In this document: piece by piece, positions 1-19,409 of the stretch
Layout of the letters: the number at the start of each line of letters is the position of its first letter
Position numbering within the stretch: the stretch's first letter is position 1
Virus record (IMG/VR): IMGVR_UViG_2529292905_000029
Origin: a virus
Lineage: Duplodnaviria; Heunggongvirae; Uroviricota; Caudoviricetes
Length of the DNA: 22,134 bases
Reading direction: 5' to 3' (one strand)
Notes under the pieces: generated by a model
What the model was told of the DNA's origin: nothing
The model's input: only the letters and a program-made list of their open reading frames with translations
Databases searched by the model: none
Position numbers and translations under genes: made by a program

Positions 1-1011
1 TTATAACGTCACTCCGCCTTTTAGTGGATTCAGAGCGACGGCATTTTGCAGATAGTCAGGCGCAAGGTGCGCATAGGCCATCGTCTGCTGAATGCTCGCA
101 TGTCCCAGAATCTGTTGCAGTGCGATTATATTGCCCCCATTCATCATGAAATGGCTTGCGAATGTATGCCGCAGGATGTGGGTTGCCTGATTGGGTGGTA
201 TATCAGGTTTCACTCTGCGTAAAATCCCGCAAAATTTCTCATAATCAACTTTGAATAATTTGGCGCTGGCCTCCTCTTTAACTTTTTTCTCCAGTTCCTC
301 AGAAATCGGCACGGCTCGCTTTTTACCGTTTTTGGTTTTCAGGAAGGTAACCCTGCAATTTGTAATCTGTGCTGGTTTTAGCGTGGCAACTTCCGTCCAT
401 CTTCCTCCGGTGCTCAGACATAAAAGCGCGACAAGTAAGTCATCACCAGCCAAAACATTTAACAGTTTTTCGATTTCTGCTTTTTCCAGGAACGTCATTT
501 CAGGGTTGGCCTCCGCCAGTGGCGGCAGTCCGTGAATTGGGTGTTGCCCGGAAAATTCATCCAATTGAATTAATTTTGTGAACATGCCGGATAATCGGTA
601 CATGTCACGGTTTATCGTTGCGGCACTGATACCATCACGTAGTCGCATGGAACGATAATCCATCAAAGCCCTTTTGCTCATCCTGCTCACTGGTATATCA
701 CCTATGCCGCTGATGGTTTTGAGTAGATGATTAAACTCTTTTGTTCCATGCTCGTGGTTTTGCCCGTGATATTTCCACCAGATGTCCAGCAACTCACTCA
801 AAGTCCGGCGGTCTGCTCGCTGGCCTCCCCATTCTTTCTGACTGGCATTGGCGATTGTGTATCGCTCAAATGCTAGTGCTTCAGCTTTTCTTTCGAATTT
901 CCTGCGGATGCGTTTTCCGTCGCGACCGCGAGGTCTAATGTCCACTTCATAGCGACCATCATCGAGCTTCTTAATTGCCATAAGAAAGCCCTCCGGCGCT
1001 GTATTCACCAT
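1..1011 (-). CDS. int: Phage integrase, tyrosine recombinase (P2 Int-like), 336 aa
   Basis: Complete minus-strand ORF whose stop codon is window bases 1-3. C-terminal region has tyrosine-recombinase-like HxLRHT (HILRHTFASH) and a conserved Tyr region (MAYAHLAP). Sits beside the repressor gene at the prophage end, as in P2. Confidence 0.9.
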   Translation of the reverse strand: MVNTAPEGFLMAIKKLDDGRYEVDIRPRGRDGKRIRRKFERKAEALAFERYTIANASQKEWGGQRADRRTLSELLDIWWKYHGQNHEHGTKEFNHLLKTISGIGDIPVSRMSKRALMDYRSMRLRDGISAATINRDMYRLSGMFTKLIQLDEFSGQHPIHGLPPLAEANPEMTFLEKAEIEKLLNVLAGDDLLVALLCLSTGGRWTEVATLKPAQITNCRVTFLKTKNGKKRAVPISEELEKKVKEEASAKLFKVDYEKFCGILRRVKPDIPPNQATHILRHTFASHFMMNGGNIIALQQILGHASIQQTMAYAHLAPDYLQNAVALNPLKGGVTL

Positions 1012-3237: not shown

Positions 3238-3509
3238 GTATTCGTATTGAAATTGGCGAACGTTATGTCGTTACCAGTGACAGCTTTCAGTTTATTCTCC
3301 ACGAGAAAAAGAGAGCGGAAAGCGGTAAAAACGCCGGTCAGGAATGGCTGGCGGTGGTTGGTTATTACCCGAAATTAGGCCAGCTCGTTTCCGGCCTGAT
3401 GCATCACGATATTCTGACCGGAAGCGCAAAATCTTTTGCTGATTTAAACGCGCAGGTTGAGCAACTCAGCAAGCGTTGTTCAGAGGCTTTTGGCTCATAT
3501 GGCCGTTAA
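3234..3509 (+). CDS. Hypothetical early protein, 91 aa
   Basis: ORF with overlapping start (ATGA at 3234-3237). Its stop (3507-3509) overlaps the ATG of gene A at 3499. Confidence 0.5.
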   Translation: MSIRIEIGERYVVTSDSFQFILHEKKRAESGKNAGQEWLAVVGYYPKLGQLVSGLMHHDILTGSAKSFADLNAQVEQLSKRCSEAFGSYGR

Positions 3510-5784
3510 AGCCTCCGGGCGTTTTGTCCCTCCGTCAGCATTTACCGCAGGCACCGGTAAGGCGTTTACCGGTGCTTATGCATGGAACGCGCCACGCGAG
3601 GCTGTCGGGCGCGAAAGACCTCTTACACGTGACGAGATGCGTCAGGTGCAAGGTGTTTTATCCACGATTAACCGCCTGCCTTACTTTTTGCGCTCGCTGT
3701 TTACTTCACGCTATGACTACATCCGGCGCAATAAAAGCCCGGTGCACGGGTTTTATTTCCTCACATCTACTTTTCAGCGTCGTTTATGGCCGCGCATTGA
3801 GCGTGTGAATCAGCGCCATGAAATGAACACCGACGCGTCGTTGCTGTTTCTGGCAGAGCGTGACCACTATGCGCGCCTGCCGGGAATGAATGACAAGGAG
3901 CTGAAAAAGTTTGCCGCCCGTATCTCATCGCAGCTTTTCATGATGTATGAGGAACTCTGCGATGCATGGGTTGATGCGCATGGTGAAAAAGAATCGCTGT
4001 TTACGGATGAGGCGCAGGCTCACCTCTATGGTCATGTTGCTGGCGCTGCACGTGCTTTCAATATTTCCCCGCTCTACTGGAAAAAATACCGTAAAGGACA
4101 GATGACCACGAGGCAGGCATATTCTGCCATTGCCCGCCTGTTTAACGATGAGTGGTGGACTCATCAGCTTAAAGGCCAGCGTATGCGCTGGCATGAGGCG
4201 TTACTGATAGCTGTCGGGGAGGTCAATAAAGACCGTTCTCCTTATGCCAGTAAACACGCCATTCGTGATGTGCGTGCGCGCCGCCAGGCAAATCTGGAAT
4301 TTCTTAAATCGTGTGACCTTGAAAACAGGGAAACCGGCGAGCGCATCGACCTTATCAGTAAGGTGATGGGCAGTATTTCTAATCCTGAAATTCGCCGGAT
4401 GGAGCTGATGAACACCATTGCCGGTATTGAGCGTTACGCCGCCGCAGAGGGTGATGTGGGGATGTTTATCACGCTGACCGCGCCGTCAAAGTATCACCCG
4501 ACACGTCAGGTCGGAAAAGGCGAAAGTAAAACCGTTCAGCTTAATCACGGCTGGAACGATGAGGCATTTAATCCAAAGGATGCGCAGCGTTATCTCTGCC
4601 GTATCTGGAGCCTGATGCGCACGGCATTCAAGGATAATGATTTACAGGTCTACGGTTTGCGAGTCGTCGAGCCACACCACGACGGAACGCCGCACTGGCA
4701 TATGATGCTTTTTTGTCATCCACGCCAGCGTAACCAGATTATCGAAATCATGCGTCGCTATGCGCTCAAAGAGGATGGCGACGAAAGAGGAGCCGCGCGA
4801 AACCGTTTTCAGGCAAAACACCTTAACCGGGGCGGTGCTGCGGGATATATCGCGAAATACATTTCAAAAAACATCGACGGCTATGCACTGGATGGTCAGC
4901 TCGATAACGACACCGGCAGGCCGCTGAAAGACACTGCAGCGGCTGTTACCGCATGGGCGTCAACGTGGCGCATTCCGCAATTTAAAACGGTTGGCCTGCC
5001 GACAATGGGGGCTTACCGTGAACTACGCAAATTGCCTCGCGGCGTCAGCATTGCTGATGAGTTTGACGAGCGCGTCGAGGCTGCACGCGCCGCCGCAGAC
5101 AGTGGTGATTTTGCGCTGTATATCAGCGCGCAGGGCGGGGCAAATGTCCCGCGCGATTGTCAGACTGTCAGGGTCGCCCGTAGTCTGTCGGATGACGTTA
5201 ACGAGTACGAGGAAGAAGTCGAGAGAGTGGTCGGCATTTACGCGCCGCATCTCGGCGCGCGTCATATTCATATCACCAGAACGACGGACTGGCGCATTGT
5301 GCCGAAAGTTCCGGTCGTTGAGCCTTTGACTTTAAAAAGCGGCATCGCCGCGCCTCGGAGTCCTGTCAATAACTGTGGAAAGCTCACCGGTGGTGATACT
5401 TCGTTACCGGCTCCCACACCTTCTGAACACGCCGCAGCAGTGCTTAATCTGGTTGATGACGGTGTTATCGAATGGAATGAGCCGGAGGTCTTGAGGGCGC
5501 TCAGGGGTGCATTAAAACACGACCTGAGAACGCCAAACCGTCAGCAAAGAAACGGAAGCCCGTTAAAACCACATGAAATTGCACCATCGGCCAGACTGAC
5601 CCGGTCTGAACGATTGCAAATCACCCGTATCCGCGTTGACCTTGCTCAGAACGGTATCAGGCCGCAGCGATGGGCACTTGAGGCGCTGGCGCGTGGCGCG
5701 ACCGTAAATTATGACGGGAAAAAATTCACGTATCCGGTCGCTGATGAGTGGCCGGGATTCTCAACAGTAATGGAGTGGACATGA
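3499..5784 (+). CDS. A: Rolling-circle replication initiator endonuclease (P2 gpA), 761 aa
   Basis: Start MAVKASGRFVPP at ATG 3499. HUH-type metal-binding motif (PHWHMMLF) and active-site tyrosine motif (GYIAKYISKN) of rolling-circle initiators. Length equals P2 A (761 aa). Confidence 0.92.
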   Translation: MAVKASGRFVPPSAFTAGTGKAFTGAYAWNAPREAVGRERPLTRDEMRQVQGVLSTINRLPYFLRSLFTSRYDYIRRNKSPVHGFYFLTSTFQRRLWPRIERVNQRHEMNTDASLLFLAERDHYARLPGMNDKELKKFAARISSQLFMMYEELCDAWVDAHGEKESLFTDEAQAHLYGHVAGAARAFNISPLYWKKYRKGQMTTRQAYSAIARLFNDEWWTHQLKGQRMRWHEALLIAVGEVNKDRSPYASKHAIRDVRARRQANLEFLKSCDLENRETGERIDLISKVMGSISNPEIRRMELMNTIAGIERYAAAEGDVGMFITLTAPSKYHPTRQVGKGESKTVQLNHGWNDEAFNPKDAQRYLCRIWSLMRTAFKDNDLQVYGLRVVEPHHDGTPHWHMMLFCHPRQRNQIIEIMRRYALKEDGDERGAARNRFQAKHLNRGGAAGYIAKYISKNIDGYALDGQLDNDTGRPLKDTAAAVTAWASTWRIPQFKTVGLPTMGAYRELRKLPRGVSIADEFDERVEAARAAADSGDFALYISAQGGANVPRDCQTVRVARSLSDDVNEYEEEVERVVGIYAPHLGARHIHITRTTDWRIVPKVPVVEPLTLKSGIAAPRSPVNNCGKLTGGDTSLPAPTPSEHAAAVLNLVDDGVIEWNEPEVLRALRGALKHDLRTPNRQQRNGSPLKPHEIAPSARLTRSERLQITRIRVDLAQNGIRPQRWALEALARGATVNYDGKKFTYPVADEWPGFSTVMEWT

Positions 5785-6236
5785 TGGCAAAAATTCACGA
5801 GGTAAAGCTGCACGCAAAATATTTCGACCTTGTGCTGGAAGGAAAGAAACGCGCAGAGTTTCGGAAAAATGACCGTAATTATGAGCGCGGGGACACGTTG
5901 ATTTTGCATGAATGGGCGCAGGGTGTGTATACGGGGAGAAAGGTTGAAGCCAGGATAACAGATGTTACTGACCTGTCAGACTGGCTGGAAGACTATGTCT
6001 TGCTAAGTATTGAGCTGCTTAATACAGGCGCATATGAGATTGTGAACTGGAAAGAACTTAGTGAGCGTGGCCTGGTATTCAGAATTAATCATGAAATTAT
6101 GCATCAGCTCGGCCTTGCTGTTATGTATGAACCAGAGACGGGGATGTCTGGCGGGGCAATGGTCGCCACGGATGGAGCATGGAACTATTCAGATGAACAG
6201 ATGGAGCGTGCACAGCAAAACGGGTGGCTTGGATAA
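5784..6236 (+). CDS. ASCH/DUF3850-like (PUA-fold) protein with C-terminal extension, 150 aa
   Basis: ATG at 5784 overlaps the TGA of A (ATGATG at 5781-5786). N-terminal ~90 aa (MAKIHEVKLHAKYFDLVLEGKKRAEFRKNDRNYERGDTLILHEW...) resembles the ASCH-like DUF3850 fold. P2 has a 91-aa ORF at this position, so the ~60-aa C-terminal extension is unusual. Confidence 0.6.
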   Translation: MAKIHEVKLHAKYFDLVLEGKKRAEFRKNDRNYERGDTLILHEWAQGVYTGRKVEARITDVTDLSDWLEDYVLLSIELLNTGAYEIVNWKELSERGLVFRINHEIMHQLGLAVMYEPETGMSGGAMVATDGAWNYSDEQMERAQQNGWLG

Positions 6237-6442
6237 TGCACAGAATACCAGGCGAGATACCGCACCATAAAACTAAAAATATCAAGCTGATGGCTATTGT
6301 TCAGCGTTTACAGCGGATTATGGTCAACGAAAATCTGACGCCCGATGAGCTGGTCGGGTGTGCCGAAATAGTCCGGGATAATTACGGGCGGCTTAACTAT
6401 ATCGGTCAGTCCAGAGTTGCGCCACCACCACGCAGACGATAG
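6224..6442 (+). CDS. Small hypothetical ORF, 51-72 aa (possible start at 6290)
   Basis: ORF track only. Convergent with the minus-strand cassette. No motif, weak support. Confidence 0.3.
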   Translation: MAWIMHRIPGEIPHHKTKNIKLMAIVQRLQRIMVNENLTPDELVGCAEIVRDNYGRLNYIGQSRVAPPPRRR

Positions 6443-6514
6443 AGAACGCCGCCAGTCGTGAAACTTGTTTTCAGGGCTGGCGGGGTTGAACAATGAGCGT
6501 AGCGAGGCGTTAGC

Positions 6515-6754
6515 CTATTTATTAAAAAATTCTAGAAGTGTAATTCCATTGGCTCCAAGGCTTACAAAGCCTTCAATACTATTAATTGATGTGATTGTCT
6601 TTTTCAGAATGTTCTTTAGCTTTGAGCCTTCTTCGGTCGTAGTTATTACTTCGTTAAATTGCTCAGACATACAAGCATGCCCCATTGTGGCTTCTGTTGC
6701 TGAAATTATTGGCTCAATACCAGTTATTTCATAGTCGTCAAAAGCTCTAATCAT
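6515..6754 (-). CDS. Hypothetical small acidic protein, 79 aa (second gene of accessory cassette)
   Basis: Minus-strand ORF in AT-rich DNA. Its ATG (6754-6752) overlaps the TGA (6753-6751) of the upstream 165-aa ORF. Rich in D/E. No recognisable domain. Confidence 0.5.
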   Translation of the reverse strand: MIRAFDDYEITGIEPIISATEATMGHACMSEQFNEVITTTEEGSKLKNILKKTITSINSIEGFVSLGANGITLLEFFNK

Positions 6755-7248
6755 GTTGTCAATGTAATATAATATTTCTTTTTTAGGTTAATTGGGAAGT
6801 CAGAATTAATTATGGATTCCTTCAGTTCTAATAATTGCCCCTTTATTTCAATTAACTGTTCATCTTTAAGTTTTCCAATCTGACCTTTGGTCTTGAATAG
6901 GACTGATATCATCCCTAATTCATTTATGGCATTATCAGAGATTCTTTGGAGGGAATGGGACAGAGATTCTCCCAGATTTAAGTTTTCGAAAAAATCATTA
7001 ACACTGGGCCTCCAGTGTGGGGCTGTGATTTCATCTTCTGGAAAGTAGTCTTTTAATGTGTTATCTATTTTTTTAGGCAAGCTCATGATTTTGGAAATCT
7101 TATCCCATAAGATGGTTTTATTATCTTCAGAACCCTCTAATTCAAACATTTGTAATAAAGCACGCTTTACCGTAATGTTATATGGTTGTTGTGCTTTTAG
7201 CTTGGTGAAAAACTCTCGTAAGGTCAGTGCTGAATTGTCGATGTACAT
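6751..7248 (-). CDS. Hypothetical protein, 165 aa (first gene of accessory cassette)
   Basis: Minus-strand ORF in the AT-rich block, with AGG about 9 nt upstream of the ATG at 7248 and a promoter-like sequence upstream. C-terminal region looks coiled-coil-like (KLKDEQLIEIKGQLLELKESI). No catalytic motif recognised. Confidence 0.55.
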   Translation of the reverse strand: MYIDNSALTLREFFTKLKAQQPYNITVKRALLQMFELEGSEDNKTILWDKISKIMSLPKKIDNTLKDYFPEDEITAPHWRPSVNDFFENLNLGESLSHSLQRISDNAINELGMISVLFKTKGQIGKLKDEQLIEIKGQLLELKESIINSDFPINLKKKYYITLTT

Positions 7249-7290
7249 GGAAAAACCTAACAGTCAAATTATTAATAATAGAACAACAAG

Positions 7291-7319
7291 ATACTAATAA
7301 AATCTAACGTTAGTATCAA
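7291..7319 (-). promoter_or_regulatory. Candidate sigma70 promoter for the accessory cassette (TTGATA-N17-TAGTAT on minus strand)
   Basis: Reverse complement of 7314-7319 is TTGATA and of 7291-7296 is TAGTAT, separated by 17 bp. The spacer contains the perfect palindrome CTAACGTTAG (7304-7313). About 40 nt upstream of the ATG at 7248. Confidence 0.45.
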
Positions 7320-7450
7320 TAACGAATATATGCGCACACTGCATGAAAATGCATTTTCTTTTAAGGGGGCGATATATCGAGTCGAGTCATGGTTGATGCG
7401 ACATTAGTGTGCTGGTGCAACTGCATTCAAACAGACCCATGAAGCGGGCG

Positions 7451-7469
7451 GGCGAGGCGGGGAAAGCAC
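7451..7469. other. cos site: 19-nt cohesive-end sequence GGCGAGGCGGGGAAAGCAC
   Basis: Exact 19-mer that I recall as the P2 cohesive end, found at the expected map position between the accessory slot and the 3' end of Q. A G/T-rich tract follows at about 7540-7610. Confidence 0.7.
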
Positions 7470-7610
7470 TGCGCGCTGGCGGTGGTGCTGATTTTATTTT
7501 TTCAGCGTCTCAGCGCGTCGTGACGGCGCTTAGTCTGCCCGTTGAGGCGTTGGTGTGTCTGCGGGGTGTTTTGTGCGGTGGTGAGCGTGTGAGGGGGTGA
7601 TGACGGGGTG

Positions 7611-7633
7611 TAAAAAAGCCGCCCGCAGGCGGC
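7611..7633 (-). terminator. Rho-independent terminator downstream of Q
   Basis: On the minus strand: GCCGCC-TGCG-GGCGGC stem-loop followed by TTTTTTA, starting about 5 nt after the Q stop codon. Confidence 0.6.
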
Positions 7634-7638
7634 GATGT

Positions 7639-8673
7639 TCAGTCGTTGTCAGTGTCCAGTGAGTAGTTTTTAAAGCGGATGACCTCCTGACCGAGCCAGC
7701 CGTTTATCTCGCGGATCCTGTCCTGTAACGGGATAAGCTCATTGCGGACAAAGACCTTTGCCACTTTCTCAATATCTCCCAGTGACCCGACGTTCTCCGG
7801 CTTGCCGCCCATCAACTGAAAGGGGATGCGGTGTGCGTCCAGCAGGTCAGCGGCGCTGGCTTTTTTGATATTAAAAAAATCGTCCTTCGTTGCCACTTCA
7901 CTGAGCGGGATAATTTTAATGCCGTCAGCTTTCCCCTGCGGGGCATAGAGAAACAGGTTTTTAAAGTTGTTGCGACCTTTCGACTTAACCATGTTTTCGC
8001 GGAGCATTTCGATATCGTTGCGATCCTGCACGGCATCGGTGACGTACATGATGTATCCGGCATGTGCGCCATTTTCGTAATACTTGCGGCGGAACAACGT
8101 GGCCGACTCATTCAGCCAGGCAGAGTTAAGGGCGCTGAGATATTCCGGCAGGCCGTACAGCTCCTGATTAATATCCGGCTCCAGCAGGTGAAACACGGAG
8201 CCGGGCGCGAAAGGTGTCGGCTCGTTGAAGGACGGCACCCACCAGTAAACATCCTCCTCCACGCCACGGCGGGTATATTTTGCCGGTGAGGTTTCCAGTC
8301 TGATGATCTTACCGGTGGTGCTGTAACGCTTTTCCAGAAACGCATTACCGAACACCAGAAAATCCAGCACAAAGCGGCTGAAATCCTGTTGTGAAAGCCA
8401 CGGATGCGGGATAAATGTCGAGGCCAGAATATTACGTTTGACGTAAATCGGTGAGCTGTGATGCACGGCAGCACGCAGACTTTTTGCCAGACCGGTAAAG
8501 CTGACCGGCGGCTCATACCATCTGCCGTTACTGATGCATTCGACGTAATCCAGAATGTCACGGCGGTCGAGTACCGGCACCGGCTCGCCAAAGGTGAATG
8601 CCTCCATTTTCGGGGCGCTGGCGGTCATTGTTTTTGCCGCAGGTTGCGGTGTTTTCCCTTTTTTCTTGCTCAT
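7639..8673 (-). CDS. Q: Portal protein (P2 gpQ), 344 aa
   Basis: Minus-strand ORF of 344 aa, the same length as P2 Q. Adjacent to and overlapping the terminase large-subunit gene; immediately inside cos, as in P2. Confidence 0.9.
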   Translation of the reverse strand: MSKKKGKTPQPAAKTMTASAPKMEAFTFGEPVPVLDRRDILDYVECISNGRWYEPPVSFTGLAKSLRAAVHHSSPIYVKRNILASTFIPHPWLSQQDFSRFVLDFLVFGNAFLEKRYSTTGKIIRLETSPAKYTRRGVEEDVYWWVPSFNEPTPFAPGSVFHLLEPDINQELYGLPEYLSALNSAWLNESATLFRRKYYENGAHAGYIMYVTDAVQDRNDIEMLRENMVKSKGRNNFKNLFLYAPQGKADGIKIIPLSEVATKDDFFNIKKASAADLLDAHRIPFQLMGGKPENVGSLGDIEKVAKVFVRNELIPLQDRIREINGWLGQEVIRFKNYSLDTDND

Positions 8674-10445
8674 CAGTAAAACTCCAGAATGGTGGATGTC
8701 AGCGGGGTGCTGATACCGGCGGTGAGTGGCTCATTTAACAGGGCGTGCATGGTCGCCCAGGCGAGGTCGGCGTGGCTGGCTTCCTCGCTGCGGCTGGCCT
8801 CATAGGTGGCGCTGCGTCCGCTGCTGGTCATGGTCTTGCGGATAGCCATAAACGAGCTGGTGATGTCGGTGGCGCTGACGTCATATTCCAGACAGCCACG
8901 ACGGATAACGTCTTTTGCCTTGAGCACCATTGCGGTTTTCATTTCCGGTGTGTAGCGGATATCGCGCGCGGCGGGATAGAACGAGCGCACGAGCTGGAAC
9001 ACGCCGACACCGAGGCCGGTGGCATCAATACCGATGTATTCGACGTTGTATTTTTCGGTGAGTTTGCGGATGGATTCAGCCTGAGTGGCAAAGTCCATGC
9101 CTTTCCACTGGTGACGCTCAAGTATCCTGAATTTGCCACCGGCCACCACCGGCGGTGCCAGCACCACGCATCCGGCGCTGTCGCCACGGTGTGACGGGTC
9201 GTAACCAATCCATACCGGGCGGGAGCCGAACGGATTGGCGGCAAAGGGTGCATAGTCTTCCCATTCTTCCAGCGTGTCGATCATGCAGCGTTGCAGCTCC
9301 TCGAACGGGAACACCGATGCCTTGTCGTCAACAAATTCACACATGAACAGGTTTTTAAAATCGTCGGCGCTGTTTTCGCGTTTGAGCTGCTCAATGTCGA
9401 ACAGCGTGCAGCCACCTTTCAGGGCGTCCTCAATGGTGACAATCTGCCGCCACTGGCCGTCTGCACAGAGAAGCCCATCGGCAAGGGCGTTATGACTGAC
9501 GTCGATTTCCACGCGTTCGGCGGCGCTGGCGCGTCCCCGGTTGAACAGTTCACCCGACCAGAACGGGTAGGCGTCGTGCGCCAGCGTGGACGGGGTGGAG
9601 AAATAGGTCGAGCGCAGGTGACTCTGTGAGGCCATACCTGATGCCACCTTACGCAGTACCTGAAAATTCGGTATCCAGAAAATCTCGTCGACGTACAGGT
9701 CGCCGTTATGGCTCTGCGCGGTGTTGGAGTTGGTGCCGAGAAAAATCAGTTTTGCGCCGTTATTGCCCAGGACAATCGGGTCACCGGTCAGGTCAACGTC
9801 AACCAGCCGGGCAAAGGCGATGATGTATTCGCGGAACACATACGCCTGCGTTTTACTGGCCGACAGAAAAATCTGGTTATGACCGGTTTTCAGGGCGCGC
9901 AGCAGCGCCTCGCGGGAAAAATAAAACGTCGCGCCAATCTGGCGGGATTTCAGGATATCGCGGATGCGGTGCTCAAGCCCGGCGCGATACCAGTGCAACT
10001 GATAGTCGAAAGACTGCTCAAAGAAAATCTGCTCCAGCTTTTCGATAGCCTCGTCACTGAAAAAATTCTTTTTCGGTTTGCGACGCCCGCCTTTGTTGCG
10101 GTTAGCGACGTTCGGATTAAGGTCTGCCTCGTTGCCGGTCTGGCTGTAACGGTTGACCCGTGCCAGCCGTTCAATCTGGCGTCCGAGCAGGTCAATTTCC
10201 TTGAAGTCACCGCCGGTTTTCTGCGGTTTGATGATGAGCTGGGTCAGCCGCGCTTCCAGACTCATTTCGACACGGCTGATGGGGGCAACGCTGTCCCAGC
10301 CGTCGCGCTGTTTCCAGCTCTGCACCGTCGGGCGTTTCATCTGCAACATGGCGGCAATCTGCGGCACGGAAAACCCCTGCCAGTACAGCAGCGCCGCCTG
10401 ACGACGCGGGTCGTGTAAAAGAGTGGTGTCTGTGGTGATGGTCAT
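8673..10445 (-). CDS. P: Terminase large (ATPase) subunit (P2 gpP), 590 aa
   Basis: Minus-strand ORF. Start taken at MTITTD (ATG 10445) with GAGG upstream, giving 590 aa as in P2 P. The ORF track's longer 600-aa version begins 30 nt upstream. Divergent from the O-N-M-L operon, as in P2. Confidence 0.9.
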   Translation of the reverse strand: MTITTDTTLLHDPRRQAALLYWQGFSVPQIAAMLQMKRPTVQSWKQRDGWDSVAPISRVEMSLEARLTQLIIKPQKTGGDFKEIDLLGRQIERLARVNRYSQTGNEADLNPNVANRNKGGRRKPKKNFFSDEAIEKLEQIFFEQSFDYQLHWYRAGLEHRIRDILKSRQIGATFYFSREALLRALKTGHNQIFLSASKTQAYVFREYIIAFARLVDVDLTGDPIVLGNNGAKLIFLGTNSNTAQSHNGDLYVDEIFWIPNFQVLRKVASGMASQSHLRSTYFSTPSTLAHDAYPFWSGELFNRGRASAAERVEIDVSHNALADGLLCADGQWRQIVTIEDALKGGCTLFDIEQLKRENSADDFKNLFMCEFVDDKASVFPFEELQRCMIDTLEEWEDYAPFAANPFGSRPVWIGYDPSHRGDSAGCVVLAPPVVAGGKFRILERHQWKGMDFATQAESIRKLTEKYNVEYIGIDATGLGVGVFQLVRSFYPAARDIRYTPEMKTAMVLKAKDVIRRGCLEYDVSATDITSSFMAIRKTMTSSGRSATYEASRSEEASHADLAWATMHALLNEPLTAGISTPLTSTILEFY

Positions 10446-10618
10446 GAATACCTCGCCGTGATGAATACACGGCAAGGCTACTGAGTCGCGCCCCGCGATT
10501 CGCTAAGGTGCTGTTGTGTCAGTGATAAGCCATCCGGGACTGATGGCGGAGGATGCGCATCGTCGGGAAACTGATGCCGACATGTGACTCCTCTAATCAC
10601 TATTCAGGACTCCTGACA
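10446..10618. promoter_or_regulatory. Divergent late-promoter region between P and O
   Basis: 173-bp intergenic region between divergently transcribed P and O. In P2 this interval holds the Ogr-dependent late promoters. Contains the inverted repeat GCCGTG-N7-CACGGC (10455-10473) and an imperfect TGT-N12-CAC element (10583-10600). Confidence 0.45.
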
Positions 10619-11473
10619 ATGGCAAAAAAAGTCTCAAAATTCTTTCGTATCGGCGTTGAGGGTGACACCTGTGACGGGCGTGTCATCAGTGCGCAGGATA
10701 TTCAGGAAATGGCCGAAACCTTTGACCCGCGAGTCTATGGTTGCCGCATTAACCTGGAACATCTGCGCGGCGTCCTGCCTGACGGTATTTTTAAGCGTTA
10801 TGGCGATGTGGTCGAACTGAAGGCCGAAAAGATTGACGATGATTCGGCGCTGAAAGGCAAATGGGCGCTGTTTGCGAAAATCACCCCGACCGATGACCTT
10901 ATCGCGATGAACAAGGCCGCGCAGAAGGTCTATACCTCAATGGAAATTCAGCCGAACTTTGCCAATACAGGCAAATGTTATCTGGTGGGTCTGGCCGTCA
11001 CCGATGACCCGGCAAGCCTCGGCACGGAATACCTGGAATTCTGCCGCACGGCAAAACACAACCCCCTGAACCGCTTCAAATTAAGCCCTGAAAACCTGAT
11101 TTCAGTGGCAACGCCCGTTGAGCTGGAATTTGAAGACCTGCCTGAAACCGTGTTCACCGCCCTGACCGAAAAGGTGAAGTCCATTTTTGGCCGCAAACAG
11201 GCCAGCGATGACGCCCGTCTGAATGACGTGCATGAAGCGGTGACCGCTGTTGCTGAACATGTGCAGGAAAAACTGAGCGCCACTGAGCAGCGCCTCGCTG
11301 AGATGGAAACCGCTTTTTCCGCACTTAAGCAGGAGGTGACTGACAGGGCGGATGAAACCAGCCAGGCATTCACCCGCCTGAAAAACAGTCTCGACCACAC
11401 CGAAAGTCTGACCCAGCAGCGCCGCAGCAAGGCCACCGGTGGTGGCGGTGACGCCCTGATGACGAACTGCTGA
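10619..11473 (+). CDS. O: Capsid scaffolding protein (P2 gpO), 284 aa
   Basis: Start taken at MAKKVSKF (ATG 10619), giving 284 aa as in P2 O. First gene of the head operon. Helical, Ala/Glu-rich C-terminal half typical of scaffold proteins. Confidence 0.88.
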   Translation: MAKKVSKFFRIGVEGDTCDGRVISAQDIQEMAETFDPRVYGCRINLEHLRGVLPDGIFKRYGDVVELKAEKIDDDSALKGKWALFAKITPTDDLIAMNKAAQKVYTSMEIQPNFANTGKCYLVGLAVTDDPASLGTEYLEFCRTAKHNPLNRFKLSPENLISVATPVELEFEDLPETVFTALTEKVKSIFGRKQASDDARLNDVHEAVTAVAEHVQEKLSATEQRLAEMETAFSALKQEVTDRADETSQAFTRLKNSLDHTESLTQQRRSKATGGGGDALMTNC

Positions 11474-16885: not shown

Positions 16886-17521
16886 ATGAACACTCTCGCA
16901 AATATTCAGGAACTCGCGCGCGCACTGCGCAACATGATTCGCACCGGCCTTGTCGTCGAAACCGACCTTAACGCCGGTCGCTGCCGTGTGCAGACCGGCG
17001 GCATGTGCACTGACTGGCTTCAGTGGCTGACCCATCGCGCCGGACGTTCGCGCACATGGTGGGCACCTTCCGTGGGGGAACAGGTGCTGATTCTGGCCGT
17101 GGGGGGTGAACTCGACACGGCGTTCGTTCTGCCGGGGATTTATTCCGGCGATAACCCCTCGCCGTCTGTGTCGGCGGATGCCCTGTACATCCGTTTCCCT
17201 GACGGGGCGGTGATTGAGTATGAACCCGAAACCAGTGCGCTCACGGCAAGCGGAATTAAAACGGCCAGCGTGACGGCTTCTGATTCTGTTACTGCCACGG
17301 TGCCGGTGGTCATGGTGAAAGCGTCAACCCGCATCACTCTGGACACGCCGGAGGTGGTCTGCACCAACAGGCTGATTACCGGCACGCTGGAAGTGCAGAA
17401 GGGCGGGACGATGCGCGGCAACATTGAACACACCGGCGGTGAACTCTCATCAAACGGTAAGGTACTGCATACCCATAAACACCCCGGCGACAGCGGCGGC
17501 ACAACCGGGAGTCCTTTATGA
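16886..17521 (+). CDS. V: Baseplate spike / hub protein (P2 gpV), 211 aa
   Basis: 211 aa, as in P2 V. First gene of the V-W-J-I-H baseplate/fibre operon. Confidence 0.9.
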   Translation: MNTLANIQELARALRNMIRTGLVVETDLNAGRCRVQTGGMCTDWLQWLTHRAGRSRTWWAPSVGEQVLILAVGGELDTAFVLPGIYSGDNPSPSVSADALYIRFPDGAVIEYEPETSALTASGIKTASVTASDSVTATVPVVMVKASTRITLDTPEVVCTNRLITGTLEVQKGGTMRGNIEHTGGELSSNGKVLHTHKHPGDSGGTTGSPL

Positions 17522-17793
17522 CAGCGCGTTATCTCGGAATGAATCGCAGTGATGGCCTGACTGTCACTGACCTTGAGCATATCAGCCAGAGTATCGGCGA
17601 TATCCTGCGCACACCGGTCGGCTCACGGGTGATGCGTCGTGATTACGGCTCGTTGCTGGCGTCAATGATTGACCAGCCGCAGACCCCGGCGCTTGAGTTG
17701 CAGATTAAGGTCGCCTGTTACATGGCGGTGCTGAAATGGGAACCCCGCGTCACCCTGTCATCCGTCACCACGGCGCGCAGTTTTGACGGGCGA
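17518..17793 (+). pseudogene. W: Baseplate wedge protein W (P2 gpW), 5' fragment of 92 codons, interrupted by IS
   Basis: ATG at 17518 overlaps the V stop. The reading frame runs into the IS end sequence after codon 92 (...SFDGR). The ORF-track 124-aa product is read-through into the IS. Confidence 0.8.
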
Positions 17794-17797
17794 ATAA
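17794..17797. repeat. Target-site duplication (left copy), ATA(A)
   Basis: ATAA directly abuts the IS left end and is repeated at 19410-19413 at the right end. Confidence 0.7.
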
Positions 17798-19409
17798 GGG
17801 GGTGCGGACGATTTCTTGGACGGTTTATACGGACATCAATCCGACCGCATGACGATACTCGATGGGACTACGCCCGCCAAGCGACACTTTGATGCGGCGC
17901 TCGTTGTACCAGTGGATATAGGCATCGATTCGCGTCATGAGGTCTTTCAGCGTCACGTGCTGCCAATTCCTCGGGTAGATTAGTTCGGTCTTCAATCGTC
18001 CGAAAAAGCCCTCGCATGCAGCATTGTCTGGCGAGCAGCCCTTTTTGGACATCGACCGCGTTAATTGGGCATTTTCAGTGCGGCGGATCCACGCAGGCCA
18101 GCGATAATGCGAGCCCCTGTCCGAATGGATAACCGGATGCTCACCGGGTCGCAGTGTCCGTACCGCGTGATCCAGCATGGTATTGACCAGGTTCGCATCC
18201 GGGCTGGTGCCGATATTCCAGGCCACCACCAGCCCATCGAAGCAATCGACGATCGGCGAGACGTAGACCTTCCCTGCCGGAATGTGTATTTCCGTCAGAT
18301 CGGTCAACCATTTCGTATTCGGCGCCGACGCGTGAAAGTCGCGATTCAGCAGATTCGGGACCGCTGGTGTCGGGTCGCCAGCATACGCCGAGAAGCGCCG
18401 GCGGCGCGGTGTTCTCACGACCAGACGCTCTTGCGCCATCAAGCGACGCACGACCTTCTCGGACACACGCATGCCACCAAGGCGCAAGGCACTATCAATG
18501 CGTCGATAGCCATAGCAGCGGTAGTTGTCCTCGAAGATAGTCCGAATGACCTCACGCACCTGCGTGTACTTGTCGGGCCGCGTCTGCCGCAGGCGTTGAT
18601 AGAAGTATGTGCTGCGCGCCAGCTTCAGGCCGCACAACAGATTGGCTAATGGAAACGTGACTCTGAGGGCATCAACCACCTTCGTTTTTTCTCGGCTTGT
18701 CAGTTCGAGGGGGTTGATGCCCATGTCTTTTTTTATCAATTCACTCGCCTTCTCCAGAATTGCATTCTCCATGCGAAGCCGCTGGTTCTGGCTCTCCAGT
18801 TCGGCCAGTTCCCTGAGTAGTGCCTCATGCCGCTGCTCGAGCGAGGTGTCACCTTTCTTCTTTGTCATGGGTTTTAGGGGCACTTTGCCAAGTAATCGAT
18901 GCTGCCAGTTATACAACGTTGGTCGCGATACACCGACAGTGTCGGCCACATCCTTTGCCGAACCTACGCGCAGGTTCAGTGCAATGACGGCTTGCTGCTT
19001 CTCGAGGCGAGAGCGGGCGACTGTGGGAGCGCTGCTGCCGACGACCGTCCTAGCGAATTCAGGGCGTAAATCACGGATCCAGGCACGCAAGGCCTCGCGG
19101 CTTGGGTAGCCCAGGCTTCGGATTGTGTGACTCAGGCAGTAGCCTTGTTCGATATAGTGATCTACTGCCCGTTGCTTTTGCTCATCGGTGTACTGCCGTT
19201 TTATCCGTTGATAGCCTCGGCGAAGATCCTGATTCCGTTCGAATTCTGCCAACCAGGCCTTCAGCGAGTTCTTGGTGGGGTATCCCAGCTGCCGTAGTGT
19301 GGCGCTCATCCGGCGCCCAAGCTTCAGGTACAACCTCACGGCTCGAAGGCGATCTTCATACGAATACATGAACTACTCCTAAAGTAGTCCAAGATTTTGT
19401 CCGCACCCC
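17798..19409 (-). mobile_element. Insertion sequence (~1.61 kb), IS3-family-like, inserted in gene W
   Basis: Imperfect terminal inverted repeats: left GGGGGTGCGGACGATTTCTTGGAC, right (reverse complement) GGGGTGCGGACAAAATCTTGGAC. Flanked by an ATA(A) direct repeat. Carries one long transposase ORF. Removing it restores a 115-codon W reading frame. Confidence 0.85.
17825..19369 (-). CDS. Transposase, IS3-family-like DDE (rve) type, single fused 514-aa ORF
   Basis: N-terminal HTH region resembling IS150-type InsA (MYSYEDRLRAVRLYL...), leucine-zipper-like segment (LLRELAELESQNQRLRMENAILEKA), and C-terminal rve-type catalytic motifs (HSDRGSHY; SPDNAACEGFFGRLKTE). AGGAG lies 7 nt upstream of the ATG. 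Confidence 0.85.
   Translation of the reverse strand: MYSYEDRLRAVRLYLKLGRRMSATLRQLGYPTKNSLKAWLAEFERNQDLRRGYQRIKRQYTDEQKQRAVDHYIEQGYCLSHTIRSLGYPSREALRAWIRDLRPEFARTVVGSSAPTVARSRLEKQQAVIALNLRVGSAKDVADTVGVSRPTLYNWQHRLLGKVPLKPMTKKKGDTSLEQRHEALLRELAELESQNQRLRMENAILEKASELIKKDMGINPLELTSREKTKVVDALRVTFPLANLLCGLKLARSTYFYQRLRQTRPDKYTQVREVIRTIFEDNYRCYGYRRIDSALRLGGMRVSEKVVRRLMAQERLVVRTPRRRRFSAYAGDPTPAVPNLLNRDFHASAPNTKWLTDLTEIHIPAGKVYVSPIVDCFDGLVVAWNIGTSPDANLVNTMLDHAVRTLRPGEHPVIHSDRGSHYRWPAWIRRTENAQLTRSMSKKGCSPDNAACEGFFGRLKTELIYPRNWQHVTLKDLMTRIDAYIHWYNERRIKVSLGGRSPIEYRHAVGLMSV

What the first reader, a model, noticed from the sequence alone, without database searches (positions are those of the whole stretch)
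6443..7450. Compositional island replaces tin/old between the replication module and cos
Flanking genes follow the P2 map at matching protein lengths (A 761 aa, Q 344 aa, P 590 aa), but the interval between them has no tin-like or old-like ORF. P2 Tin is about 250 aa and Old about 590 aa, and the largest ORF here is 165 aa. The interval is markedly lower in GC, which points to horizontal acquisition by cassette exchange at a phage cargo hotspot. The boundaries are roughly 6500 on the left and about 7330 on the right, shortly before cos.
Basis: partly seen in the sequence, partly recalled or inferred. Interest (0 to 1): 0.6.

Follow-up and report, generated by a model that had tools for sequence, protein, structure and literature searches.

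The report
Frameshifted unknown cargo gene, P2 hotspot
The low-GC stretch is the well-known swappable cargo slot next to the packaging site of P2-like phages; here it holds one uncharacterised 244-codon gene, probably a phage-exclusion gene, that a one-base deletion has broken in this genome.

Summary
A 901-bp segment (window 6515-7415) has 34% GC against 54% elsewhere. It sits between the gpA replication module and cos (7451-7469), where P2 carries tin and old. Related peduoviruses align up to base 6514 and again from 7416 but carry different genes in between. This is the published gpA-gpQ diversity and defence hotspot (Rousset 2022; Moura de Sousa 2026).

The "165-aa largest ORF" is misleading. 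The 165-aa and 79-aa minus-strand ORFs are two halves of one 244-aa gene (phrog_15904). An A7-to-A6 deletion (plus-strand T6 at 6779-6784) splits it. Phage GMS190 and E. coli prophages keep the gene intact.

The protein is soluble, all-helical, and under purifying selection (dN/dS 0.1-0.25). It matches no Pfam, NCBIfam, PADLOC or PDB entry and is unrelated to Tin.

Relatives occupy the same slot in P2-type and 186-type prophages, a P4-like satellite hotspot, and a decayed Enterobacter prophage that kept only this gene. Distant relatives sit on IncF plasmids beside vapBC, pifCA, SIR2 or TIR genes.

Most likely it is a single-gene lysogenic-conversion or phage-exclusion cargo that is inactive here. 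No assay or homology shows its function. The phenomenon is known and the cargo family is new.

The parts
5748..6236 (+). Conserved left-flank gene: orf91-like ASCH/DUF3850 protein with a DUF7415 C-terminal extension
   Evidence: Pfam DUF3850 3.5e-18, DUF7415 2.3e-14, ASCH 5.2e-11. P2 homology stops at 6004, inside this gene.
6224..6442 (+). Conserved left-flank small ORF (68-72 aa, phrog_11386, unknown function), last gene of the rightward early operon
   Evidence: PHROG hit 4.1e-39. Present at 100% identity next to the cargo gene in the E. coli prophages and as a 59%-identical relic in the Enterobacter remnant.
6445..6487 (.). Strong hairpin in the conserved left flank, a candidate convergent terminator between the early operon and the cargo gene
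   Evidence: 19-nt arms, 84% complementary. RNA dG -28.8 kcal/mol, z -4.1 on the + strand and -25.5, z -2.4 on the - strand. It lies inside the stretch shared with phages that carry other cargo.
6515..7415 (.). Cargo segment as defined by loss of DNA homology with peduoviruses that carry other cargo (901 bp, 34.4% GC)
   Evidence: blastn junctions 6513/6514 and 7416. GC z = -4.4.
6515..7248 (-). Gene X (phrog_15904), 244 codons when intact; here split by a -1 nt frameshift into ORFs 7248-6751 (165 aa) and 6754-6515 (79 aa) that overlap in ATGA
   Evidence: The halves hit phrog_15904 positions 1-163 and 166-244. Intact 244-aa ORF in GMS190 and in E. coli prophages. dN/dS 0.09-0.25. AF2 all-helical model, pLDDT 86.9.
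6779..6784 (-). Frameshift site: coding-strand A6 where five relatives have A7 (tract 2, codons 153-155)
   Evidence: Alignment with GMS190. Tract counts in the window against L001 and L005-L008.
7068..7074 (-). Second A7 tract of gene X (tract 1, codons 58-60), intact here but A8 in three other assemblies
   Evidence: L042-L044 carry a +1 A here, giving 62-aa and 132-aa ORFs.
7291..7319 (-). Candidate sigma-70 promoter of gene X: -35 TTGATA (7319-7314), 17-nt spacer, -10 TAGTAT (7296-7291)
   Evidence: Consensus scan. The same elements (ATTGAC/T, then TAGCAT/TAGTAT) are kept upstream of X in four of the seven carriers aligned (window, L030, L002, L024). Function is inferred, not shown.
7340..7354 (-). 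ATGCA-N5-ATGCA cluster at offsets 115 and 125 from the cohesive end (third copy degenerate here), conserved whatever the cargo
   Evidence: Same offsets in P2 and vB_YpM_50, the only non-X carriers with readable sequence, and in the Klebsiella 186-like prophages and five further X carriers (window, L030, L024, L025, L002). A 67-nt spacer of constant length but variable sequence separates it from the copy at offset 43. L028 lacks the first copy of the cluster, L029 is offset by about one base, and the 720R8 record is masked by N.
7422..7426 (-). cos-proximal ATGCA motif (offset 43)
7451..7469 (.). P2-type 19-nt cohesive end (cos)
   Evidence: Exact match to GGCGAGGCGGGGAAAGCAC. Identical to the cosR annotated in NC_001895.
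7639..8673 (-). gpQ portal gene, the right anchor of the hotspot; its terminator-like hairpin is at 7618-7633
   Evidence: 344 aa, PF04860 in the identical contig. Terminator scan.

Best explanation
The interval is the cargo slot of the cos-proximal gpA-gpQ hotspot of a P2-like prophage. The window is identical in all nine proteins compared to a P2-like prophage of E. coli DEC5E next to cpxP/cpxRA.

Instead of tin and old, the slot holds a single 735-bp gene, X (phrog_15904). X is read leftward, away from cos, as old and tin are in P2.

Shown:
- The flanks are conserved and the insert is swapped among relatives.
- X is one gene, intact elsewhere and under purifying selection.
- It encodes a soluble, acidic, all-helical 27.8-kDa protein with no recognisable catalytic or membrane domain.
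- In this genome a 1-nt deletion in an A7 tract splits it. Residues 156-165 are lost, including the invariant Y162.

Inferred:
- X is transcribed in the lysogen from its own sigma-70 promoter (7319-7291), just inside a conserved cos-side platform.
- Transcription ends at the conserved hairpin at 6445-6487.
- The intact protein is a single-component lysogenic-conversion factor that excludes competing phages. It most likely acts by binding a phage or host protein rather than by catalysis, a Tin-like logic without Tin homology.
- The copy in this window is most likely non-functional.
For: Hotspot and exchange. Literature.

One broken gene.

Real gene: dN/dS 0.09-0.25 across homologues of 43-77% identity. 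Profile search found 776 representatives, nearly all 235-275 aa and matched full length.

Protein properties: AF2 pLDDT 86.9 with 14 helices. No transmembrane segment, pI 5.0.

Context pointing to defence:
- The same slot in P2-type and 186-type prophages of E. coli, Klebsiella, Scandinavium and Enterobacter, and in seven IMG/VR contigs.
- The cos-adjacent hotspot of a Serratia P4-like satellite.
- Kept intact in a decayed Enterobacter cloacae-complex prophage remnant seen on more than 55 contigs, close to a pAgo-associated REase-type gene.
- Distant relatives on 30 Enterobacterales plasmids. Seven plasmid loci were inspected. Five have the homologue directly after vapBC. Neighbours include PifC-PifA (two loci), a PDC-S06 ATPase with SIR2 (one locus), and a TIR/CBASS-phospholipase cluster (one locus without vapBC directly upstream).

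Base rate: 6 of 8 randomly chosen unknown P4 hotspot loci gave phage protection (PMC13586616).

Promoter. Hairpin.

Against: Not all cargo at this hotspot is defensive; partition systems and toxins also occur there. For P2, machine learning flagged only 15-32% of unknown proteins as antiviral.

The tight vapBC linkage on plasmids could instead mean a maintenance or regulatory role. Some distant members lie in plain chromosomal islets.

The frameshift could be a homopolymer sequencing error, in which case the gene would be intact in the real strain.
Confidence: 0.6

Rival explanations
1. X is a non-defence accessory gene, for example a counter-defence factor or a maintenance or regulatory partner of mobile elements (such as a third component working with VapBC on plasmids). 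It rides in the hotspot because the slot tolerates any cargo.
For: On 5 of 7 inspected plasmids the homologue starts 15-32 nt (193 nt in one, L041) after vapC, compatible with one operon. Another relative lies next to a VapB/MazE-type antitoxin. The P2 hotspot also carries non-defence cargo. Few invariant residues and no catalytic motif.
Against: In phages and satellites X is always solitary, with no vapBC nearby. On plasmids it is not in the leading region, where anti-defence genes cluster, but between ccdAB and RepFIA beside PifA, SIR2 or TIR genes. Retention in a dead prophage remnant argues for benefit to the host rather than to the phage.
Confidence: 0.3
2. The frameshift is a sequencing or assembly error at a homopolymer, and the strain really carries an intact, working X.
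For: The only lesion is one base in an A7 run. The rest of the gene differs from intact alleles by a few substitutions only. The source looks like an older draft assembly (AIFU01000023.1).
Against: The identical 165-aa product was read on two contigs. A different allele background (P0179: S22, A97, T145) carries the same tract-2 frameshift. Three further assemblies carry A8 at the other A7 tract. Real slippage at these tracts therefore occurs. The prophage also has an IS element in baseplate gene W, which fits decay.
Confidence: 0.3
3. The two overlapping minus-strand ORFs (165 aa and 79 aa, ATGA overlap) are a genuine two-gene operon such as a toxin-antitoxin pair.
For: ATGA stop-start overlap, as in translationally coupled pairs.
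Against: Both map collinearly onto one 244-position PHROG profile. All 17 clusters of close homologues, and the intact allele in five close relatives, are single ORFs of 243-251 aa. The break is a 1-nt deletion inside a predicted helix.
Confidence: 0.02
4. The A7 tracts act as a contingency (phase-variable) switch that turns a costly gene on and off.
For: Three apparently independent length changes (A6 and A8) at the two A7 tracts in a small set of E. coli sequences. Tract 2 is kept in several divergent homologues.
Against: A7 is short for efficient switching. Two A7 runs in a 34%-GC gene are close to the chance expectation (my estimate, about 0.4 expected). Tract positions are not conserved family-wide and follow from KK(E/D) codons. 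Most copies are intact: about 120 contigs against fewer than 10.
Confidence: 0.1

Closest known systems
P2 tin-old 'TO region', the gpA-gpQ cos-proximal diversity and defence hotspot of P2-like phages (Odegrip 2006; Rousset et al. 2022; Moura de Sousa et al. 2026)
   Same: Same position between the gpA module and cos/gpQ. Same leftward orientation as old and tin. Same low GC (0.34). Conserved flanks with a variable insert. A small locus. The cargo promoter sits beside the same cos-side ATGCA motifs as the P2 old-tin promoter.
   Different: The cargo is a single gene with no similarity to Tin, Old or any catalogued system. At 0.9 kb it is at the small end of the reported range, against a mean of 3.2 kb. 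Here it is a pseudogene, which the 2026 study reports as uncommon for recognised defence genes.
P2 Tin (253 aa; blocks T-even phages)
   Same: Similar size (244 against 253 aa). Same slot and orientation. A single protein with no recognisable enzymatic domain in X, so a comparable binding-based exclusion logic is the working model. The Tin mechanism is from my own knowledge, not tested here.
   Different: No detectable sequence or profile similarity. The target and phenotype of X are unknown.
P4-like satellite psu-int hotspot cargo
   Same: A 43%-identical homologue lies next to a cos-like site and the delta genes of a Serratia P4-like element.
   Different: Opposite orientation relative to cos. 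The published analysis finds that P2 and P4 almost never share defence genes, so this family is one of the exceptions, although at deep divergence rather than through recent exchange.
IncF plasmid defence/maintenance region (ccdAB - vapBC - pifCA - RepFIA)
   Same: Relatives of 23-29% identity, about 247 aa and full length, sit there beside PifA, a PDC-S06 ATPase, and SIR2 or TIR genes.
   Different: There the gene follows vapBC closely and may be co-transcribed with it. In phages it stands alone with its own promoter.

Membership tests
gpA-gpQ cos-proximal hotspot cargo of P2-like phages | Lies between the replication gene A module and portal gene Q, adjacent to cos | tested here: met
   A at 3499-5784, cos at 7451-7469, Q at 7639-8673.
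gpA-gpQ cos-proximal hotspot cargo of P2-like phages | Flanks conserved among related phages while the intervening genes differ | tested here: met
   Junctions 6514|6515 and 7415|7416 against Wphi, vB_YpM_46, vB_YpM_50, 720R8 and P2, each with different cargo.
gpA-gpQ cos-proximal hotspot cargo of P2-like phages | Cargo confers anti-phage activity | not testable with these tools
   Only contextual evidence is available. A plaque assay is needed.
P2 Tin | Sequence or profile homology to Tin (NP_046797) | tested here: not met
   BLASTP E = 7; hhalign probability 0.2%.
OLD-family nuclease (P2 Old) | An ATPase plus Toprim protein of about 590 aa | tested here: not met
   No ORF above 165 aa (244 aa when repaired) in the interval. 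No Pfam or PADLOC ATPase or Toprim hit.
Catalogued defence systems (PADLOC-DB v2.0.0) | A significant HMM hit to a system component | tested here: not met
   No hit for the halves or the intact protein. Only scattered single-member hits with E > 1e-4 across 54 family members.
phrog_15904 (phage protein family of unknown function) | Full-length match to the 244-position profile | tested here: met
   Intact protein 3.7e-168. Window halves 8.2e-109 (positions 1-163) and 4.5e-50 (positions 166-244). All 54 sampled distant relatives also match.
Type II toxin-antitoxin pair | Two independent small genes kept as a pair in homologous loci | tested here: not met
   Intact homologous loci have one ORF of 243-251 aa; the only split copies are other frameshifted alleles (L042-L044).
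Homopolymer-driven phase-variable (contingency) gene | Reversible tract-length variation within populations that switches expression | tested here: inconclusive
   A6, A7 and A8 variants exist among isolates. Within-population switching cannot be examined, and the tracts are short and not family-wide.

The most novel reading that the evidence does not exclude
phrog_15904 is an unrecognised, widespread family: 776 clusters at 50% identity, about 240 aa, all-helical, with no known fold match. It would be a single-protein, non-enzymatic anti-phage factor shared by P2-type and 186-type phages, P4-like satellites, decayed prophages and IncF plasmids, where it follows vapBC next to pifCA. It would be a rare defence cargo found in both helper phage and satellite hotspots, and it would be recurrently switched off by slippage at A7 tracts.
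Probability: 0.35. Interest if true: 0.55.

Novelty: new member of a known kind. Interest (0 to 1): 0.3.

Why it matters
The island itself adds nothing new. It is one more instance of the documented P2 hotspot.

Its value is as a lead. The slot is filled by one short gene with its own promoter, from a sizeable protein family that no database annotates. That family keeps turning up where anti-phage genes sit, in phages, satellites, plasmids and prophage relics. This makes it a cheap and well-defined candidate for a plaque-assay test.

The copy in this window is broken, so the intact allele (phage GMS190 or E. coli, P0001/P0168) should be used.

The fixed-offset ATGCA motifs suggest that the conserved cos-side platform reaches about 140 bp inward from the cohesive end and overlaps the cargo promoter. 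This matters for where hotspot boundaries are drawn.

Tried and rejected
- Tin homology (similar size and the same slot): rejected.
- Two-gene or TA reading of the 165-aa and 79-aa ORFs: rejected.
- Known domains or defence models for X: Pfam, NCBIfam, PADLOC and PDB sequence searches with single sequences, the close-family alignment and 54 distant members gave nothing significant.
- HEPN-type Rx4-6H or other catalytic motifs: I saw none among the conserved columns.
- Membrane protein: no transmembrane segment.
- ncRNA in the interval: no Rfam match.
- Anti-defence "leading region" context on plasmids: not the location found.
- Programmed slippage at the A-tracts: the tract positions are not conserved family-wide.
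- Literature and supplement searches for the accessions and the PHROG id found nothing.
- The search for related loci with the broad alignment failed for lack of conserved stretches.

Full report
**1. What the window is**

The window is a P2-like prophage. It runs from integrase (1-1011, minus strand) through C/cox, B and A, then cos, Q, P, O, N and the late genes. All nine proteins I compared are 100% identical to contig AIFU01000023.1 of E. coli DEC5E, where the prophage lies next to cpxP/cpxRA. The 19-nt P2 cohesive end GGCGAGGCGGGGAAAGCAC is at 7451-7469. It is identical to the cosR annotated in NC_001895.

**2. The observation**

- GC in 300-bp windows falls to 0.31-0.40 between about 6450 and 7350, against 0.50-0.60 on either side.
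- The homology-defined insert 6515-7415 is 34.4% GC against 54.1% for the rest. That is z = -4.4 against all other 901-bp windows, and no other part of the window comes close (minimum 0.426).
- GC3 of the coding sequence is 0.29-0.36, against 0.55 for A and 0.65-0.71 for Q, P and N.
- No Tin-like or Old-like ORF is present.

**3. Junctions**

- Megablast of 6400-7450 against 50,697 phage records found the whole interval in one record only, Yersinia phage GMS190 (99.4% identity).
- Twenty-one other peduoviruses matched only up to query base 114/115, which is window 6513/6514.
- 297 of 5,426 complete E. coli genomes also matched only that left flank. None holds the cargo.
- On the right, other phages resume at window 7398-7416.
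- Direct blastn against fetched loci gave the following:

| Phage | Cargo after the left junction | Homology to window stops at | Resumes at |
|---|---|---|---|
| Wphi | mth, orf96, orf98 | 6513 | record ends at cos, not seen |
| vB_YpM_46 | 313-aa minus-strand ORF | 6514 | record ends at cos, not seen |
| 720R8 | 313-aa minus-strand ORF | 6514 | 7436 |
| vB_YpM_50 | 197-aa plus-strand ORF | 6513 | 7416 |
| Klebsiella 186-like prophage | X homologue | (aligns 6515-6924) | 7416 |

- Against P2 itself, homology stops earlier, at 6004. That point is inside the orf91/ASCH gene, which here carries an extra DUF7415 domain. It resumes at 7422.
- P2's tin-old segment is 0.34 GC, the same as this insert.

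This is the published gpA-gpQ hotspot, with 1,650 gene arrangements in 18,150 E. coli loci (PMC9122126; PMC13586616).

**4. What the cargo is**

- The two minus-strand ORFs, 7248-6751 (165 aa) and 6754-6515 (79 aa), overlap in ATGA and lie in different frames.
- They match positions 1-163 and 166-244 of a single PHROG, phrog_15904 (E 8e-109 and 4.5e-50).
- GMS190 has one 244-aa ORF at this place.
- The alignment shows a single-base difference in a homopolymer. The window has T6 at 6779-6784 on the plus strand (A6 on the coding strand). GMS190 and four E. coli prophages have A7.
- The shifted frame replaces residues 156-165 and ends in TGA. The downstream ORF restarts at Met166.
- The lost stretch includes Y162, which is invariant in the close family, and lies inside a predicted helix.

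The "largest ORF of 165 aa" is therefore a broken 244-codon gene, which I call X.

**5. Is the frameshift real?**

- The exact 165-aa product is on record as ECDEC5E_4863 (WP_000275056) and was read on two contigs.
- A second 165-aa sequence (P0179) has the same tract-2 frameshift on a different allele background (S22, A97, T145).
- Three other assemblies (L042-L044) share that background but carry A8 at the gene's other A7 tract (window 7068-7074). That gives 62-aa and 132-aa ORFs.
- At least three separate tract-length changes therefore exist in a small sample, which argues that slippage at these tracts really happens.
- A sequencing error in this particular assembly cannot be excluded without the reads.
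- Intact copies dominate, with about 120 contigs against fewer than 10.
- The tracts follow from Lys-Lys codons in an AT-rich gene and are not conserved across the family. I do not favour programmed slippage or a dedicated phase switch.
- The prophage carries another lesion. An IS3-family element (inverted repeats 17799-17821 and 19387-19409; 514-aa transposase ORF) sits inside baseplate gene W.

**6. X is a real gene from a larger family**

- Close homologues form 17 clusters at 90% identity. All are 243-251 aa and all come from Enterobacterales.
- Pairwise dN/dS is 0.09-0.25.
- A profile search of 1.84 billion representatives found 776 proteins at E <= 1e-3 and 218 at E <= 1e-10. Nearly all are 235-275 aa and match full length. 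Fifty-four sampled members all hit phrog_15904.
- Only a few columns are invariant or nearly so family-wide: N5, A7, L10, L57, Y173, G177 and G190.
- The AlphaFold model is confident (pLDDT 86.9, pTM 0.77) and consists of 14 helices.
- The protein is 27.8 kDa with pI 5.0 and no transmembrane segment.
- There are no significant Pfam, NCBIfam, PADLOC or PDB sequence hits.
- X is not related to Tin.

**7. Where the family lives**

- The same Q-cos-X slot and orientation occur in E. coli P2-type prophages (L005-L008, L026).
- The slot is also used in 186-type prophages whose gpA is only about 36% identical. These come from Klebsiella, Scandinavium and Enterobacter and from several IMG/VR contigs. 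X has therefore spread across divergent peduovirus backbones.
- In the Enterobacter cloacae complex, a 76%-identical intact copy survives in a prophage relic: ogr, gpD fragments, X, a relic of the 72-aa ORF, and an integrase fragment. The relic still has a cos-like site, lies close to a pAgo-associated REase-type gene, and is seen on more than 55 contigs.
- In Serratia, a 43%-identical copy lies beside a cos-like site and the delta genes of a P4-like satellite.
- tblastn found full-length relatives of 23-29% identity on 30 Enterobacterales plasmids, 21 of them conjugative and mostly IncF.
- Seven plasmid loci were inspected. In five the gene starts 15-32 nt (193 nt in one, L041) after vapBC. 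Neighbours are pifC-pifA (PifA confirmed at 5.9e-262), a PDC-S06 ATPase with a SIR2 protein, or a TIR/CBASS-phospholipase cluster. The region lies between ccdAB and RepFIA, not in the leading region.
- Other distant members sit in an integrase island near AbiTii, next to DUF6680, in a chromosomal islet, and on a plasmid-like contig beside a VapB/MazE-type antitoxin.

**8. Expression signals and the cos-side platform**

- A promoter-like site on the minus strand has -35 TTGATA at 7319-7314, a 17-nt spacer, and -10 TAGTAT at 7296-7291. It is kept upstream of X in four of the seven carriers aligned (window, L030, L002, L024).
- Reading inward from the cohesive end, ATGCA occurs at offset 43. A cluster ATGCA-N5-ATGCA-N4..8-ATGCA occurs at offsets 115, 125 and about 137. 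The 67-nt spacer between them is constant in length but variable in sequence.
- The same offsets occur in P2 (old/tin) and vB_YpM_50, the only non-X carriers with readable sequence. They also occur in the Klebsiella 186-like prophages and five further X carriers (window, L030, L024, L025, L002). L028 lacks the first copy of the cluster, L029 is offset by about one base, and the 720R8 record is masked by N.
- In P2, the annotated old-tin mRNA starts fit a -35 TTGAAT that overlaps the third ATGCA.
DNA identity, however, only resumes at 7416.
- I take these motifs to be part of the extended packaging signal. This is inference, and I could not read Ziermann and Calendar 1990.
- On the left, the conserved flank holds a strong hairpin at 6445-6487 (dG -28.8 kcal/mol, z -4.1). 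It lies between the convergent early operon and X and is a plausible terminator for both.

**9. Interpretation**

The structural part is settled. This is a known hotspot with a swapped cassette, holding one gene that is broken here.

Function is inferred from position and neighbours only. X is most likely a lysogenic-conversion gene that excludes other phages. It is probably non-enzymatic and works by binding, as Tin does, though without homology to Tin. I give this about 0.5.

The main rival is a non-defence accessory or maintenance role, suggested by the vapBC linkage on plasmids (about 0.3).

The published base rates cut both ways. Six of eight random unknown P4 hotspot loci protected against phages, but only 15-32% of unknown P2 proteins were flagged as antiviral by machine learning.

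**10. Verdict**

The finding is correct but describes a documented phenomenon. The new content is an unannotated cargo family worth testing, together with the recognition that this copy is a frameshifted pseudogene. Interest is modest.

Noticed in passing
window 17799-19409 (transposase ORF 17825-19369, minus strand): An IS3-family insertion sequence (rve, HTH_Tnp_1 and HTH_21 domains; 23-nt terminal inverted repeats at 17799-17821 and 19387-19409) lies inside the 3' part of baseplate gene W (ORF 17518-17892), just before J (19486). The prophage is probably defective. The transposase is one fused 514-aa ORF, longer than a typical IS3 OrfAB.
   Followed up: partly
window 7340-7354 and 7422-7426; same offsets in L034 (P2), L022, L010, L031, L030, L024, L025, L002: ATGCA motifs lie at fixed offsets (43, 115, 125, about 137) from the cohesive end. 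They are separated by a 67-nt spacer of constant length but variable sequence and are conserved whatever the cargo. In P2 the third copy overlaps the -35 of the old-tin promoter. This is probably an extended terminase recognition site; I found no description of it in the papers I could read.
   Followed up: partly
window 5748-6236: The orf91 homologue here is 151-162 aa, an ASCH/DUF3850 domain plus a DUF7415 C-terminal domain. P2's orf91 is 109 aa with DUF3850 only, and P2 homology stops at 6004. The variable zone relative to P2 therefore starts inside this gene. An ASCH gene also neighbours X in the Serratia P4-like locus (L009 4810-5214).
   Followed up: no
L035-L036, L039-L041 (IncF plasmids), gene at locus about 6992-7735: A 247-aa distant relative of X follows vapB-vapC by 15-32 nt (193 nt in L041) on several IncF plasmids and may form a three-gene operon. 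It lies next to pifC-pifA or other defence genes.
   Followed up: partly
L002/L003 (Enterobacter cloacae complex) 4906-9451: A decayed P2-like prophage (ogr, gpD fragments, integrase fragment, cos relic) keeps an intact X. It lies close to a SMEK_N protein whose N-terminus matches the pAgo-associated REase-PNTD model (E 5.9e-29). It looks like a domesticated mini defence islet between the MarR-type/acetyltransferase gene (downstream of tonB and the YCII gene) and the LysE/yciY genes.
   Followed up: partly
L005, L006, L008 (E. coli prophages with intact X), about 9754-10761: Some otherwise near-identical prophages carry an extra PAPS-reductase-family gene (335 aa) between orf83 and A. It is absent from the window and from L007, and marks another variable spot in the early operon.
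   Followed up: no
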